NCBI GenBank assembly: GCA_000004985.1
Contig: GG738846.1
Reading direction: 5' to 3' (one strand)
DNA: 64,000 bases
Source: Naegleria gruberi
Lineage: Eukaryota
Shown here: one piece after another, positions 16,277 through 47,673 of the stretch
Position numbering within the stretch: the stretch's first letter is position 1
How the letters are laid out: each line of letters opens with the position of its first letter
The notes under the pieces: model-generated
The model's input: only the letters and a program-made list of their open reading frames with translations
The model's database searches: none
What the model was told of the DNA's origin: nothing
Position numbers and translations under genes: made by a program

Positions 16277-17251
16277 TTATTTCTTTTGGACAACTGTTTG
16301 ATTAATTTGACCAAAGATTGAAACCTTATTATTATCAAACATTTCCAATTGAATTCTATCACCAAACTTCATGAATGGAGTTGTAAATTGACCAGTTTCA
16401 ATCTTTTCAATCATTCTCTTTTCAGCAATACATGAACTACCACGTGATTGATCTTCATTACTGACAGTACCGCTTCCAATTATAGTACCAGCAGTGAGAG
16501 CACGAGTTTGTGTAACGTGTTGAATTAAATCATGGAATGAGAAGAACATTTCTGGTCCAGCATTTGGATTACCAAACAATTTACCATTCAAATGTGAAAT
16601 CAAATCACCATGACATCTGCCATCCTTCCACAATTCACCCAATTCATCCAAAGTAACAGCAAAAGGTGAGAAACTACTAGATGGCTTTGAAACAAAGAAT
16701 CCGAATTGTTTTTCCAATTCCTTTGGAATTAAATTACGTAAAGAAACATCATTACAAATCATGACCAATTTGATATATTGACCAGCTTGATCAGCTTTAG
16801 TACCCATTGGCACATCCTTTACAATAACAGCAACTTCACCTTCAAAATCAATTCCATAATCTTCACTAAAATGTTCAACATCTTGATTTGGTCCAATAAA
16901 AGTGCCACTTCCTCCTTGATAAACTAATGGATCTGTACGGAGTGTTTCTGGAGGTTGAGCATTACGTGCTTTACGAACAAGAACAATGTGATTAATGTAT
17001 GCACTACCATCGATCCATTCATAGGAACGTGGAAGTGGAGCCATTAAATTTTGTGATGACAATTCATGAGTGAATTGTATGGTCTTGTATAATTCTTCAA
17101 CTTTTGGATATAAATTATCCCAATCATCTAATAATTGTTGCATGGTTGTACTGATTTCGCTTGGGACTTCGGCATAGTGTGTACCTTCCTTGTTGACAAT
17201 GATTAATCTGCCATCTCTGGTTTGGTTTTTCAAGGTTGCGAATTTAACCAT
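16277..17251 (-). CDS. Fumarylacetoacetate hydrolase (FAH) family protein, bacterial-type ~324 aa, single exon.
   Basis: The FAH-fold C-terminal domain reads GEVAVIVKD...ICNDVSLRNL...SKPSSSFSPFAVTLDEL...TAGTIIGSGTVSN. The length and N-terminal domain resemble prokaryotic FAH-family hydratases/isomerases rather than the ~420 aa animal fumarylacetoacetase. Confidence 0.8.
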   Translation of the reverse strand: MVKFATLKNQTRDGRLIIVNKEGTHYAEVPSEISTTMQQLLDDWDNLYPKVEELYKTIQFTHELSSQNLMAPLPRSYEWIDGSAYINHIVLVRKARNAQPPETLRTDPLVYQGGSGTFIGPNQDVEHFSEDYGIDFEGEVAVIVKDVPMGTKADQAGQYIKLVMICNDVSLRNLIPKELEKQFGFFVSKPSSSFSPFAVTLDELGELWKDGRCHGDLISHLNGKLFGNPNAGPEMFFSFHDLIQHVTQTRALTAGTIIGSGTVSNEDQSRGSSCIAEKRMIEKIETGQFTTPFMKFGDRIQLEMFDNNKVSIFGQINQTVVQKK

Positions 17252-44126: not shown

Positions 44127-44820
44127 ATGGCTAAACACTTTCCTACTCAGTTTGGATCCACTTCTTCACGAGACGATTTTACTAACGATCTACACTTTGT
44201 AAAAGCATTCAAGAGGGAAGAAAAAAAAACACCATTATTCTGTGCGAATGATTTTCTCACATTACGAAATGGTGACGTTATTAAAATTAAAATTATTAAA
44301 GTATGTTGATGGATGAATTAATAATTCTAAACTAGAGTCGTACAGGGTGAGGAACTTGTAGTTTGTGATATAAATGGAAAGGCTGGTAAGTTTGGAATTT
44401 ATTGGTGTCAGTGTGTTTATCTTTTTGAAATTAATTTATGCAAATGGAATTACTTTGTTAGATCCATGGTAAGTTTGTAATTCATTGGTTAATGTTTATT
44501 TGGAATGAATTTGGAAAAGGTGTCAGATATATGTCAAGGGATTTAATGAAACACCCTCTACAAGTGTTGTTAAAAAGACTTTGAATCCTGTTTGGGATGA
44601 AAGTTTTTCATTTATAGTGACTGATAGTGAGCTTCTTTCTGTGGATATTGTATTTAGAGTGATGGATAGAGATATGTTTTCCGATGATTTTATGGGTCAA
44701 TCGGTTGTATATTTAACTAGGAAAGATTTTTCTCTGAATTGTTTCAAGAATTTCACTTTACCGTTGGTGGGTGTTGATCATGGATTGTTACACGTGTCAA
44801 TAGGTGTTTTTAGAGATTAA
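44127..44820 (+). CDS. C2-domain protein, four exons including a candidate 7-nt micro-exon.
   Basis: Exon 1 is 44127..44300 (...GDVIKIKIIK). Intron 44301..44343 (43 nt, GTATGTTGAT...GTACAG). Exon 2 is 44344..44384 (GEELVVCDINGKA). Intron 44385..44460. Micro-exon 44461..44467 (ATCCATG). Intron 44468..44518. Exon 4 is 44519..44820. Only with the micro-exon does the sequence read ...NGKADPWCQIYVKGFNETPSTSVVKKTLNPVWDESFSFIVTD...RVMDRDMFSDDFMGQ, a canonical C2 pattern (GKsDPYvkv...NPvWnE...D.D....D.iG). Direct splicing from 44384 to 44519 gives an in-frame TGA. Confidence 0.65.
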
Positions 44821-45401
44821 CAGATTATAGTTTTAGAAAATCATCCTTAATGTTAACTAATTTTACAAATACAACAATCTAACAATTTTAAGCAATATTT
44901 TATTAATACATTGGATGTAGATCAATTTGGCCTTCATCTGCAGAATCTGCCAAATTAAAGTATTTGGAAGCTGTATTAGGAGTACTCTTCATCATGGTCG
45001 TTCTCCTATTTTCACCAGCACTTGCTATGGAACTACTTGGGCTTGAACCTAGTTCTTCTTCGACAATGGTTTGGAAATCTTTTTGGTCAACCTGTATTCT
45101 TAATTGCTTCTTTTTAGGTATATCTTTTTTGTTAGGGATAACCTTATTCTTAGGTGTATTTTTTACAGAGGATTGATTTTGCCTAGTTGGTGGAGCAGAT
45201 GATGGCCTAGTACCTCTTTTCTCATTCTTTGGAAGAACGCTCTTATAGTAACCAACAACTCCAGCTGCCTTTTTCTTATTGAAATTATCTATTGGATGAG
45301 GATAAGAGTAGCCTTTTCCTTCCTTATTTACAACCATTGAATTTCTCTTTGTTTCCTCAGCAAATTCATCCAGCTCCTTATCAGGTAGAAACTCGTACTA
45401 T
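44600..45401. repeat. Segmental duplication copy 1 (~0.8 kb).
   Basis: Near-identical to 46182..46992, which starts immediately after the first N-gap. Only a few substitutions were seen, e.g. gctgtatTAggagt versus gctgtaCCaggagt. Confidence 0.85.
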
Positions 45402-46130: not shown

Positions 46131-46181
46131 CNNNNNNNNNNNNNNNNNNNNNNNNNNNNNNNNNNNNNNNNNNNNNNNNNN
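46131..46181. other. Assembly gap (51 N).
   Basis: Run of n characters. Flanked on the right by sequence duplicating 44600 onward. Confidence 1.
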
Positions 46182-46992
46182 TTTGGGATGAAAGTTTTTC
46201 ATTTATAGTGACTGATAGTGAGCTTCTTTCTGTGGATATTGTATTTAGAGTGATGGATAGAGATATGTTNTCAGATGATTTTATGGGTCAATCGGTTGTA
46301 TATTTAACTAGGAAAGATTTTTCTCTGAATTGTTTCAAGAATTTCACTTTACCGTTGGTGGGTGTTGATCATGGATTGTTACACGTGTCAATAGGTGTTT
46401 TTAGAGATTAACAGATTATAGTTTTAGAAAATCATCCTTAATGTTAACTAATTTTACAAATACAACAATCTAACAATTTTAAGCAATATTTTATTAATAC
46501 ATTGGATGTAGATCAATTTGGCCTTCATCTGCAGAATCTGCCAAATTAAAGTATTTGGAAGCTGTACCAGGAGTACTCTTCATCATGGTCGTTCTCCTAT
46601 TTTCACCAGCACTTGCTATGGAACTACTTGGGCTTGAACCTAGTTCTTCTTCGACAATGGTTTGGAAATCTTTTTGGTCAACCTGTATTCTTAATTGCTT
46701 CTTTTTAGGTATATCTTTTTTGTTAGGGATAACCTTATTCTTAGGTGTATTTTTTACAGAGGATTGATTTTGCCTAGTTGGTGGAGCAGATGATGGCCTA
46801 GTACCTCTTTTCTCATTCTTTGGAAGAACGCTCTTATAGTAACCAACAACTCCAGCTGCCTTTTTCTTATTGAAATTATCTATTGGATGAGGATAAGAGT
46901 AGCCCTTTCCTTCCTTATTTACAACCATTGAATTTCTCTTTGTTTCCTCAGCAAATTCATCCAGCTCCTTATCAGGTAGAAACTCGTACATA
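46182..46992. repeat. Segmental duplication copy 2 (~0.8 kb), containing a second copy of the C2 gene's last exon (46182..46411, partial).
   Basis: It begins exactly at the gap edge. Identity with copy 1 ends at 46992/45401, where copy 2 continues as coding sequence (...DYMYEFLPDK) and copy 1 continues as intron (...caaatag|TACGAG). Confidence 0.85.
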
Positions 46993-47576
46993 TAATCAGG
47001 TATTCTTTCACTTGCAATTTTATAGTACTCTCTTGTCTTGGCTGTCAAATCTTTGATGGATTCTAGTTGATCCGCGAGAAGGGTAAACGTTGTTCTCTTA
47101 TCTCTTACAACTTGGTCATCATCAGGTATTTGAGAAAGTTGGGTGTGAATTTTGGAATAGGATAATTCAGCCATCTTTAACAATGAGTCGAGTTCTCCTG
47201 GTGTTGAAAGGGCAGCTACTTCATGTGGTTGTACATCTACTAGGGCTAGTTTTTTCTCTATTGGCAGAGGCTTTACTCTGAAGTAATTGAAATCTTGCAG
47301 AATTTCATTAAGGTAGTGATATGTCTTCGGTTTTAGAGGGGAGGACACTGATTTTCTCAGCTTGACTGATGCAGTCACCGTAGACTTTTGTCGTTTCTTC
47401 TCCTTCTTTCTTATGAGACGTTTCATTTTCATTTCAATTGCAAAGGCATCCTTCTTTTTGGCAAAAATTTCCTCAATATTATTCTTTAGATCCTTCTTTT
47501 TAAATTCCTCCTCTGCTATGGTTTTTTTCACTTCTATTGAAGGTATTTTCCTTCCCCTTTGTTTACTAGCGTCCAT
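46494..47576 (-). CDS. Hypothetical basic Lys-rich protein, long paralogue (360 aa).
   Basis: Continuous ORF MDASKQRGRKIPSIEVKK...ERIPDYMYEFLPDKELDEF...IDLHPMY*. Its 5' end abuts the second gap (47624..47673), so the start may be incomplete. Confidence 0.55.
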   Translation of the reverse strand: MDASKQRGRKIPSIEVKKTIAEEEFKKKDLKNNIEEIFAKKKDAFAIEMKMKRLIRKKEKKRQKSTVTASVKLRKSVSSPLKPKTYHYLNEILQDFNYFRVKPLPIEKKLALVDVQPHEVAALSTPGELDSLLKMAELSYSKIHTQLSQIPDDDQVVRDKRTTFTLLADQLESIKDLTAKTREYYKIASERIPDYMYEFLPDKELDEFAEETKRNSMVVNKEGKGYSYPHPIDNFNKKKAAGVVGYYKSVLPKNEKRGTRPSSAPPTRQNQSSVKNTPKNKVIPNKKDIPKKKQLRIQVDQKDFQTIVEEELGSSPSSSIASAGENRRTTMMKSTPGTASKYFNLADSADEGQIDLHPMY

Positions 47577-47623: not shown

Positions 47624-47673
47624 NNNNNNNNNNNNNNNNNNNNNNNNNNNNNNNNNNNNNNNNNNNNNNNNNN
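47624..47673. other. Assembly gap (50 N).
   Basis: Run of n characters. Confidence 1.

What the first reader, a model, noticed from the sequence alone, without database searches (positions are those of the whole stretch)
44385..44518. Candidate 7-nt micro-exon (ATCCATG, 44461..44467) inside the C2-domain gene, flanked by two introns with duplicated 5' ends.
Only inclusion of 44461..44467 restores the canonical C2 motif ...NGKA-DPW-CQIYVKG and keeps NPVWDESF in frame. Splicing 44384 directly to 44519 creates a TGA, and reading through gives TAA. The two flanking introns start almost identically (gtaagtttgGaattTattggt versus gtaagtttgTaattCattggt) and both contain ggtgtcag near or at their acceptors. 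This suggests an internal duplication of an ancestral intron created the micro-exon. Micro-exons this short are rare and hard for gene predictors. This one is likely mis-annotated wherever it exists.
Basis: seen in the sequence. Interest (0 to 1): 0.6.

Follow-up and report, generated by a model that had tools for sequence, protein, structure and literature searches.

The report
Seven-base micro-exon in Naegleria C2 gene
A small calcium-binding (C2-domain) gene of a Naegleria amoeba almost certainly carries a 7-base coding exon, which arose when a second short intron, its start copied from the intron next door, appeared in this lineage only; this is a tidy example of a known phenomenon, not a new kind of thing.

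Summary
The micro-exon ATCCATG is at 44462-44468, flanked by introns 44386-44461 (76 nt) and 44469-44519 (51 nt). The window comes from a Naegleria species.

Including the 7 nt gives a 173-aa protein that aligns without gaps to orthologues from N. fowleri, N. lovaniensis, Willaertia magna and two metagenome contigs. Asp72 and Pro73 are invariant. The Pfam C2 score is 68.7 bits, against 47-55 bits for the other in-frame models I scored. Skipping the micro-exon, or retaining either intron, gives a premature stop. dN/dS against the closest orthologue is 0.07, so the gene has been under purifying selection and shows no pseudogene signature. Asp72, whose codon intron 2a splits, aligns with one of the five Ca2+-ligand aspartates of synaptotagmin-1 C2A.

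No orthologue has the downstream intron (2b), so by parsimony it was gained in this lineage. Its first 21 nt, plus 2 exon nt, copy the start of intron 2a (21/23 identical). Beyond that the similarity is weak. The shared GGTGTCAG is no more than chance, and in 2a it lies near the donor, not the acceptor.

Across Naegleria the intron in these three codons sits at four positions within 8 nt.

No transcript data were available. The "mis-annotated" claim could not be tested.

The parts
44127..44300 (+). Exon 1 of the C2 gene (174 nt, 58 codons, ATG at 44127)
   Evidence: The N-terminus aligns with N. fowleri and N. lovaniensis from Met1.
44301..44345 (+). Intron 1 (45 nt, GTATGT...TACAG, phase 0, after ...IIK)
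   Evidence: The same position holds an intron in L001, L007, N. fowleri, N. lovaniensis and Willaertia.
44346..44385 (+). Exon 2 (40 nt, GEELVVCDINGKA plus the first base of the Asp72 codon)
44386..44461 (+). Intron 2a (76 nt, GTAAGTTT...TTGTTAG, phase 1 inside the Asp72 codon, G|AT)
   Evidence: The closest orthologue, L001, has its single intron 1 nt further 3' (GA|T). N. fowleri and N. lovaniensis have it 4 nt further 3' (GAT CC|A).
44384..44406 (+). Copy 1 of the 23-nt direct repeat, TGGTAAGTTTGGAATTTATTGGT (donor of intron 2a)
44462..44468 (+). Micro-exon ATCCATG (7 nt). It encodes bases 2-3 of Asp72, all of Pro73 and bases 1-2 of Trp74.
   Evidence: The L001 orthologue has (A)TCCTTG at the same place, contiguous with the downstream exon, with one synonymous difference.
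44467..44489 (+). Copy 2 of the 23-nt direct repeat, TGGTAAGTTTGTAATTCATTGGT (donor of intron 2b)
44469..44519 (+). Intron 2b (51 nt, GTAAGTTT...GGAAAAG, phase 2 inside the Trp74 codon). Lineage-specific, with an atypical AAG acceptor.
   Evidence: Absent from L001/L002, L007, N. fowleri, N. lovaniensis and Willaertia. The other confident introns in the window end in YAG.
44520..44820 (+). Exon 4 (301 nt, last base of Trp74 to TAA at 44818-44820). It encodes the rest of the C2 domain.

Best explanation
The window is from a Naegleria species (Heterolobosea). Positions 44127-44820 (+) hold a four-exon gene for a 173-aa single-C2-domain protein.

The third exon is the 7-nt micro-exon ATCCATG (44462-44468). 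Two short canonical GT-AG introns flank it, and each has its own GTAAGTTT donor and a TTAAT branch-like motif about 30 nt upstream of its acceptor. Because introns here are short (43-115 nt), I infer that the spliceosome recognises each intron as a unit (intron definition). A 7-nt exon then needs no special mechanism: removing either intron first leaves an ordinary splice site for the other.

The micro-exon supplies most of the Asp-Pro-Trp motif of calcium-binding loop 1. Asp72 aligns with one of the five Ca2+-ligand aspartates of synaptotagmin-1 C2A, so the protein needs the micro-exon for both frame and function.

Evolutionary inference:
- The upstream intron (2a) is the local representative of an intron that the N. 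fowleri/N. lovaniensis clade and the closest metagenomic relative also carry.
- The downstream intron (2b) was gained after the window's lineage split from that relative.
- The gain was a 51-nt insertion into TG^GTGTCAG, and its first roughly 21 nt were templated from the start of intron 2a, 83 nt upstream. A local partial duplication or a template switch during repair would do this; TGGT microhomology is present at both sites.

Shown: the sequence anatomy, protein colinearity, purifying selection, absence of 2b elsewhere, and the 23-nt repeat. Inferred: actual splicing, direction and mechanism of the gain, and Ca2+ binding.
For: **Splice anatomy and frames:**

**C2 domain score:** Pfam C2 scores 68.7 bits with the micro-exon and 54.7, 55.3, 51.3 and 47.5 bits for four alternative in-frame models.

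**Orthologues:**
- N. fowleri FDP41_000665, N. lovaniensis C9374_004494, Willaertia ABK040_003121 and two ENA contigs.
- The alignment is ungapped through D-x-N-G-x-[AS]-D-P-[FWY]-x-x-I-[YF]-V-K-G-F, with D66, D72 and P73 invariant.

**Selection:** dN/dS = 0.07 against L001 over 137 codons, with synonymous sites saturated.

**Ca2+ ligands:** the synaptotagmin-1 C2A alignment places window D66, D72, D123, D125 and D130 opposite the aspartates of the Syt1 motifs LDMGG, SDPY, DFD and KHD. That these are the five Ca2+ ligands is from my own knowledge.

**Gene structures of the orthologues:**
- Intron 1 is conserved everywhere.
- L001, N. fowleri and N. lovaniensis have a single intron in the Asp-Pro region. 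L007 and Willaertia have none.
- No orthologue has an intron at the 2b position.

**Tree:** (Willaertia,(L007,((window,L001),(N. fowleri,N. lovaniensis)))).

**Repeat:**
- 23 nt, 91% identical, spacing 83 nt; unique in the window.
- 11/13 identical at intron positions +9 to +21, against a mean of about 4 and a maximum of 9 for 54 other intron pairs.

**Local intron norms:** 43-115 nt long, GTAAGTTT or GTATGT donors.
Against: - No transcript evidence of any kind could be obtained.
- The 2b acceptor is AAG in a purine-rich context, unlike the YAG acceptors of every other confident intron in the window. Its use is therefore plausible but unproven.
- Ten or eleven of the 23 repeated bases are ordinary splice-donor consensus.
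- Similarity beyond the first 21 intron bases is marginal (P about 0.04) and disappears in a k-mer test. This is odd for a recent whole-intron duplication and limits the claim to a short templated tract.
- The polarity (gain here rather than loss elsewhere) rests on parsimony over a 112-column single-gene tree.
- The assembly is a draft, with gaps and a 99% duplicate starting 70 nt into exon 4.
Confidence: 0.78

Rival explanations
1. Recently disabled gene. The 51-nt segment (2b) is an insertion that is not spliced out, or only inefficiently, so the locus is a young pseudogene or yields mostly transcripts with a premature stop (TGG TAA).
For: Retaining 2b gives an immediate TAA. The 2b acceptor is an atypical AAG. 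No annotated protein from this locus exists in the databases searched.
Against: The insertion begins with the optimal local donor, GTAAGTTT, and its removal restores the frame and the invariant motif exactly. There is no other stop or frameshift in 522 nt. All five Ca2+-ligand Asp are intact. dN/dS is 0.07, though this averages over a long divergence and cannot exclude very recent decay. The missing annotation is explained by the absence of the species from the database.
Confidence: 0.07
2. A different splice pattern without the micro-exon is the real one. An example is donor GTTTGG at 44390 joined to the acceptor at 44519 (...KAGKCQIYVKG...). Another is GTGTCA at 44405 joined to 44519 (...KAGKFGIYWCQIYVKG...).
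For: Both keep the frame open and still pass the Pfam C2 threshold, at 54.7 and 55.3 bits. A gene predictor would probably choose one of them.
Against: They use weak donors next to a perfect GTAAGT. They lose the invariant Asp72-Pro73 or insert 4 residues into a loop that is ungapped in all six sequences. They score about 13-14 bits lower.
Confidence: 0.05
3. Assembly artefact. The repeat spaced 83 nt apart, and hence intron 2b, was created by misassembly of a draft genome.
For: The window has two 50-N gaps, an ambiguous base, and an 811-nt duplicate at 99.3% identity that starts inside exon 4. The first copy ends in unrelated sequence.
Against: The two introns are alike over only 23 nt and differ in length and sequence elsewhere. 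This is not what a collapsed or duplicated read produces. The result is also exactly frame-preserving with canonical signals.
Confidence: 0.04
4. The micro-exon is real, but the similar 5' ends are not a duplication. They would reflect chance plus shared constraint, such as an intronic splicing signal needed next to a tiny exon. Intron 2b would then have arisen independently, or both introns would be old and 2b was lost elsewhere.
For: Eight of the 21 intron bases are donor consensus. Similarity fades after +21. Neutral sites between the window and L001 are saturated, so the age of the introns cannot be read from their sequence. Background intron pairs reach 9/13 identity by chance.
Against: 11/13 at a fixed register for the one pair specified in advance has a binomial probability of about 1e-4 at the observed background match rate of about 0.31 (my calculation). 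No other intron or site in the 64 kb carries the motif. Loss of 2b in three separate lineages is less parsimonious than one gain.
Confidence: 0.2

Closest known systems
Coding micro-exons of 15 nt or less, as catalogued in plants (Yu et al. 2022, PMC8831610), including the 1-nt exons of APC11 and VPS55
   Same: A very short internal coding exon flanked by canonical introns with strong GTRAGT donors. It is needed to keep the frame and a conserved protein motif. Relatives carry the same bases inside a larger exon. Annotation pipelines tend to miss such exons.
   Different: The plant micro-exons are mostly ancient, conserved across land plants and backed by RNA-seq or RT-PCR. This one is in a heterolobosean amoeba, appears lineage-specific and young, and has no transcript support yet.
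Near intron pairs, intron sliding and intron gain by tandem duplication in Drosophila (Lehmann et al. 2010, PMC2891723)
   Same: Orthologous genes carry introns at positions less than 32 nt apart. Here they are 1, 2, 5 and 8 nt into the same three codons. There is no intron-less state between the intron-bearing Naegleria lineages in the tree, and some distances are multiples of 3 (2, 5, 8). Local duplication is one proposed source.
   Different: [quoted passage not shown] Here the pair apparently does coexist, 7 nt apart. The newer intron also shows identifiable similarity to the older one, whereas they found no relevant similarity of their introns to other introns, transposons or exons. Their duplication model copies exonic sequence containing an AG|GY proto-splice site. 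Here the copied tract is the 5' end of an existing intron.
Intron creation by segmental or tandem genomic duplication (Hellsten et al. 2011, PMC3265369; Ma et al. 2016, PMC4974935)
   Same: A new functional intron arises at once because a duplication supplies ready-made splice signals.
   Different: I saw only the titles and abstracts of these papers. In those cases the whole new intron is a recognisable duplicate. Here only about 21-23 nt are clearly duplicated and the origin of the remaining 30 nt or so is unresolved.
Stwintrons, the spliceosomal twin introns of fungi (PMC8469720)
   Same: Two U2-type introns in immediate proximity, whose removal may be ordered. Stwintrons have also been discussed as a source of new introns.
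   Different: In a stwintron the inner intron interrupts a splice signal of the outer one and no exon lies between them. Here each intron has complete signals of its own and 7 coding bases are kept between them.
Ca2+-binding C2 domains such as synaptotagmin-1 C2A (PDB 2r83, 1rsy)
   Same: Pfam C2 at 68.7 bits. Best PDB matches are synaptotagmin-1, -7 and -3 and the ferlins. All five aspartate positions of the calcium-binding loops are present.
   Different: This is a stand-alone 173-aa protein with a roughly 50-residue N-terminal extension and no transmembrane or second C2 domain. It is a family restricted, as far as found, to Naegleria and Willaertia. Ca2+ and lipid binding are untested.

Membership tests
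Coding micro-exon | Internal exon of 15 nt or less, bounded by a canonical acceptor upstream and a canonical donor downstream | tested here: met
   TTGTTAG|ATCCATG|GTAAGT at 44462-44468.
Coding micro-exon | Inclusion is needed for the frame and reproduces residues conserved in orthologues | tested here: met
   Skipping gives TGA and retention gives TAA. D72 and P73 are invariant and the alignment is ungapped. Pfam gains 13-21 bits.
Coding micro-exon | Observed in mature transcripts | not testable with these tools
   No RNA data for this species. No spliced protein from this locus in the 5.8-billion-protein collection.
C2 domain (PF00168), Ca2+-binding type | Profile match above the curated threshold | tested here: met
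   68.7 bits against a cut-off of 22, residues 52-141.
C2 domain (PF00168), Ca2+-binding type | Five acidic Ca2+ ligands in loops 1 and 3 | tested here: met
   D66, D72, D123, D125 and D130 align with the Asp of the Syt1 C2A motifs LDMGG, SDPY, DFD and KHD. Their identity as ligands is from general knowledge.
C2 domain (PF00168), Ca2+-binding type | Ca2+-dependent membrane binding | not testable with these tools
   Requires biochemistry.
Intron gained by local or tandem duplication | Intron absent at that position in sister and outgroup lineages | tested here: met
   No intron at TG|G in L001/L002, L007, N. fowleri, N. lovaniensis or Willaertia. Tree.
Intron gained by local or tandem duplication | Significant sequence similarity between the new intron and a nearby source | tested here: inconclusive
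   Clear for 23 nt (21/23; 11/13 beyond the consensus). Marginal or absent for the remaining 30 nt or so.
Intron gained by local or tandem duplication | AG|GY proto-splice site or direct repeats at the insertion boundaries | tested here: inconclusive
   Only a 3-4-nt microhomology (G|GT; TGGT at both donors). The orthologous site in L001 is TGG|GTG, not AG|GT.
Near intron pair / intron sliding (Lehmann et al. 2010) | Intron positions less than 32 nt apart in orthologues, with no intron-less intermediate | tested here: met
   Positions 1 and 8 (window), 2 (L001), 5 (N. fowleri, N. lovaniensis), counted in nt from the first base of the Asp codon. Intron-less states occur only in the two outgroups.
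Near intron pair / intron sliding (Lehmann et al. 2010) | Sequence similarity between orthologous introns at the two positions, or tandem GYRGYR/NAGNAG sites | tested here: not met
   2a against the L001 intron gives P about 0.03 and 2b against it P about 0.34. Synonymous sites are saturated. No tandem splice sites are visible at these junctions.
Stwintron | The inner intron interrupts the donor, branch site or acceptor of an outer intron, with no exon between them | tested here: not met
   Both introns have complete signals of their own, and 7 coding bases must be kept.
Introner-like element | Many near-identical intron copies dispersed in the genome | tested here: inconclusive
   The motif occurs only at these two adjacent sites in the 64 kb. 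The rest of the genome was not available.

The most novel reading that the evidence does not exclude
The locus may be a snapshot of how introns "slide". A resident intron seeds a partial copy of itself a few bases away, the two coexist for a time around a micro-exon, and loss of either one leaves an intron at a shifted position. Repeated rounds at this site would explain why four Naegleria lineages have an intron at four different positions (1, 2, 5 and 8 nt) within the same three codons of one small gene. Coexisting near intron pairs, thought very unlikely in Drosophila (PMC2891723), would then be the missing intermediate.
Probability: 0.2. Interest if true: 0.7.

Novelty: new member of a known kind. 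Interest (0 to 1): 0.42.

Why it matters
Cases where a recently gained spliceosomal intron can be tied to an identifiable source sequence are few, and almost none come from Heterolobosea. If transcripts confirm the micro-exon, the locus gives three things:

1. A clean, testable example of intron gain templated by a neighbouring intron.
2. A coexisting pair of introns only 7 nt apart, at a site where congeners differ in intron position. This bears on the long-running question of whether intron "sliding" is real and how it happens.
3. A practical warning for annotating Naegleria genomes. A predictor that cannot place a 7-nt exon will drop the gene or emit a protein lacking a Ca2+-ligand Asp.

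The protein itself is an ordinary small C2-domain protein.

Tried and rejected
- **Enumerating splice combinations.** All GT/GC-AG and AT-AC combinations across 44346-44600 gave many frame-preserving solutions. Frame restoration alone is therefore not evidence, and I relied on orthologue colinearity and domain score instead.
- **First word-indexed protein search.** It found only one homologue. The exhaustive HMMER search with exon 4 was needed to reach the N. fowleri/N. lovaniensis cluster representative, Willaertia and a second metagenome contig.
- **Profile search with the six-sequence alignment.** It added nothing new and found no N. gruberi orthologue.
- **Search with the neighbouring 360-aa ORF.** It found nothing at E <= 1e-10, so I could not reach an annotated N. 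gruberi locus through synteny.
- **Exact-product look-ups.** Of six window ORFs, only one matched, on an ENA metagenome contig. The source assembly is not in the collection, so I could not see how it is annotated.
- **JGI metagenome scan.** It returned only generic C2 domains (43% identity or less) and no further orthologous loci.
- **Longer duplication.** I looked for a tandem unit of 83 nt, reuse of GGTGTCAG, and TGGAA-type motifs. Outside the 23-nt repeat nothing exceeds shuffled controls, so I dropped the more elaborate duplication-deletion scenarios.
- **Tandem Repeats Finder.** It sees no array here.
- **Literature.** No paper in the held library links Naegleria with micro-exons.
- **Rejected classifications.** Stwintron, recursive-splice-site and introner-like readings do not fit; see the membership test.

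Full report
**1. What is in the sequence**

The window is AT-rich (about 33% GC). It has long open reading frames interrupted by a few short introns. At 44127-44820 on the + strand lies a small gene:

| Feature | Coordinates | Length | Notes |
|---|---|---|---|
| Exon 1 | 44127-44300 | 174 nt | ATG at 44127 |
| Intron 1 | 44301-44345 | 45 nt | GTATGT...CAG |
| Exon 2 | 44346-44385 | 40 nt | |
| Intron 2a | 44386-44461 | 76 nt | GTAAGT...TTAG |
| Micro-exon | 44462-44468 | 7 nt | ATCCATG |
| Intron 2b | 44469-44519 | 51 nt | GTAAGT...AAAG |
| Exon 4 | 44520-44820 | 301 nt | TAA at 44818-44820 |

Joining exon 2 directly to exon 4 runs into a TGA. Retaining 2b gives TGG TAA. Reading through both introns also ends in TAA.

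**2. Is the micro-exon more than chance?**

Frame restoration alone is weak evidence. 42 single-intron and 256 two-intron combinations of GT/GC-AG or AT-AC sites in this stretch keep the frame open. The evidence that counts is comparative.

- *Domain score.* The micro-exon model scores 68.7 bits against Pfam C2. Four alternative in-frame models score 54.7, 55.3, 51.3 and 47.5 bits.
- *Orthologues.* An exhaustive HMMER search with exon 4, followed by cluster look-up, identified N. fowleri FDP41_000665, N. lovaniensis C9374_004494, Willaertia magna ABK040_003121 and two metagenome contigs (L001/L002 and L007). The window is therefore from a Naegleria species.
- *Colinearity.* In the six-way alignment the region D-x-N-G-x-[AS]-D-P-[FWY]-x-x-I-[YF]-V-K-G-F has no gaps. 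D66, N68, G69, D72 and P73 are invariant. The 7 nt encode exactly the missing ..AT CCA TG.
- *Closest relative.* L001 is 72% identical and has the same convergent neighbouring gene. The same bases there read (A)T CCT TG, contiguous with the downstream exon, with one synonymous difference.
- *Selection.* dN/dS between the window and L001 is 0.07 over 137 codons, with synonymous sites saturated. The gene has been under strong purifying selection.
- *Function of the residues.* Alignment to synaptotagmin-1 C2A puts D66, D72, D123, D125 and D130 opposite the five aspartates that, from established knowledge of that domain, ligate Ca2+. Intron 2a splits the codon of D72 (G|AT).

**3. Splice-signal plausibility**

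Eight other confident introns in the window are 43-115 nt long. They start GTAAGTT(T/A) or GTATGT and end in YAG. Both 2a and 2b have the best local donor, GTAAGTTT. 2a ends in TAG. 2b ends in AAG within a purine-rich stretch, which is atypical here, although Willaertia intron 1 also ends in AAG. Each intron has a TTAAT about 30 nt upstream of its acceptor. With introns this short, recognition of each intron as a unit is the expected mode (my inference). Removing either intron first leaves a normal site for the other. No transcript data could be reached with these tools, so splicing is inferred, not shown.

**4. Origin of the arrangement**

I mapped the annotated proteins onto their loci and read the metagenome contigs. 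Intron 1 is at the same phase-0 position in all species. Positions in the Asp-Pro-aromatic codons are counted in nt from the first base of the Asp codon:

| Lineage | Intron position(s) |
|---|---|
| Window | 1 (2a) and 8 (2b) |
| L001 | 2 (GA\|T) |
| N. fowleri, N. lovaniensis | 5 (GAT CC\|A) |
| L007 | none |
| Willaertia | none |

A neighbour-joining tree on 112 ungapped columns gives (Willaertia,(L007,((window,L001),(N. fowleri,N. lovaniensis)))). By parsimony, an intron entered this spot in the ancestor of the last four lineages. Intron 2b is unique to the window's lineage and is therefore a gain.

The start of 2b repeats the start of 2a.
- There is a 23-nt direct repeat (2 exon nt plus 21 intron nt), 21/23 identical, spaced 83 nt apart. 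It has no other match in the window even at 3 mismatches.
- Eight of the intron bases are donor consensus. The next 13 are 11/13 identical, whereas 54 other intron pairs in the window average about 4 and reach at most 9.
- Beyond +21 the similarity is marginal (P about 0.04 in a local alignment test).
- Once the 23-nt repeat is masked, shared k-mers do not exceed shuffles (P 0.16-0.21).
In 2a it lies near the donor, not the acceptor.

I conclude that a short tract of 2a templated the 5' end of a 51-nt insertion at TG^GTGTCAG. TGGT microhomology at both sites fits a local duplication or a template switch. A whole-intron duplication is not demonstrated.

**5. Comparison with what is known**

- *Micro-exons.* They are well documented down to 1 nt and are notoriously misannotated (PMC8831610).
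- *Closely spaced alternative intron positions.* "Near intron pairs" have been attributed in Drosophila to sliding or tandem duplication (PMC2891723). That study considered coexistence of such pairs in one gene very unlikely, and found no relevant similarity of its introns to other introns, transposons or exons. Here the pair apparently coexists and shares a copied 5' end. That is the one feature a specialist might find noteworthy.
- *Stwintron.* This is not one: each intron has complete signals of its own and coding bases are kept between them.
- *Introner family.* There is no sign of one within the 64 kb.
- *Literature.* I found no paper linking Naegleria and micro-exons in the held library.

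**6. The "mis-annotated" claim**

It could not be tested.
- No protein sharing this gene's last exon is in the 5.8-billion-protein collection.
- Exact look-ups of window ORFs failed, except for one hit on an ENA metagenome contig. The source assembly is therefore not represented.
- The annotated orthologues have no micro-exon and are modelled correctly.

**7. Caveats**

The assembly is a draft. There are 50-N gaps at 46132-46181 and 47624-47673, and 44592-45401 is repeated at 46183-46993 at 99.3% identity. The second copy carries the intact neighbouring gene, colinear with L001. The first copy breaks off into unrelated sequence. This looks like an unmerged haplotype or a chimeric contig end. 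The micro-exon region itself is present only once and does not look like an assembly product, because 2a and 2b differ outside the 23 nt.

**8. Verdict**

The micro-exon is very probably real (about 0.8). It was created by a lineage-specific gain of intron 2b, and the 5' end of that intron was copied from intron 2a (about 0.55 for the templating sub-claim). It is a new member of known kinds (micro-exon; intron gain by local duplication) in an under-studied lineage. Interest is moderate. It would rise if transcripts and sister genomes show that coexisting intron pairs are intermediates of intron sliding.

Noticed in passing
window 44386/44469; L001 181-224; L003 3384-3486; L004 3406-3516: The intron inside the Asp-Pro-aromatic codons of this C2 gene sits at four positions within 8 nt across Naegleria. 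Counting in nt from the first base of the Asp codon: after nt 1 and nt 8 in the window, nt 2 in L001, and nt 5 in N. fowleri and N. lovaniensis. L007 and Willaertia have none. This points to a local hotspot of intron turnover or sliding.
   Followed up: partly
window 44466-44530 versus L001 225-245: After Trp, the window reads TGG TGT CAG ATA (W-C-Q-I) and L001 reads TGG GTG TCA ATT (W-V-S-I). The hexamer GTGTCA is kept at the DNA level but read in a different frame. This implies two compensating 1-nt indels, the first exactly at the insertion site of intron 2b.
   Followed up: no
window 46132-46181, 47624-47673, 46270: Two runs of exactly 50 N (scaffold gaps) and a single ambiguous base. The stretch between the gaps is a 1.4-kb contig.
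   Followed up: yes
window 44592-45401 versus 46183-46993: An 811-nt duplicate at 99.26% identity (5 mismatches, 1 gap). It covers the last 229 nt of the C2 gene and the 3' part of the convergent neighbouring gene. The second copy continues into the intact 360-aa neighbour ORF (46494-47576), colinear with L001. The first copy breaks at 45401 into unrelated sequence. It is probably an unmerged haplotype or a chimeric contig end rather than a real segmental duplication.
   Followed up: partly
L003 3641-3740; L004 3671-3725; L007 229-267: There is further intron turnover in the same small gene. N. fowleri and N. lovaniensis have an extra intron at MDK|D. The L007 species has one 9 nt upstream, at VFK|V. 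The window and L001 have neither.
   Followed up: no
L001 1-19: The metagenome contig k141_867013 begins with Illumina adapter sequence (CACGACGCTCTTCCGATCT), so untrimmed adapter is present in a public assembly.
   Followed up: no
window 16277-17251 (-); L006: The 324-aa fumarylacetoacetate-hydrolase-family ORF of the window is found with an identical product only on an ENA metagenome contig (ERZ929261, PRJEB11402). The same or a very close Naegleria therefore occurs in that sample, while the source genome's own proteome is absent from the collection.
   Followed up: no
L001 199-534; L007 55-267: Prokaryote-style gene calling on these eukaryotic metagenome contigs yields chimeric proteins whose N- or C-termini are translated intron. 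Examples are P0001, which starts MEIKNAFTS..., and P0127, which ends ...GLRSNFVVNTS.
   Followed up: yes
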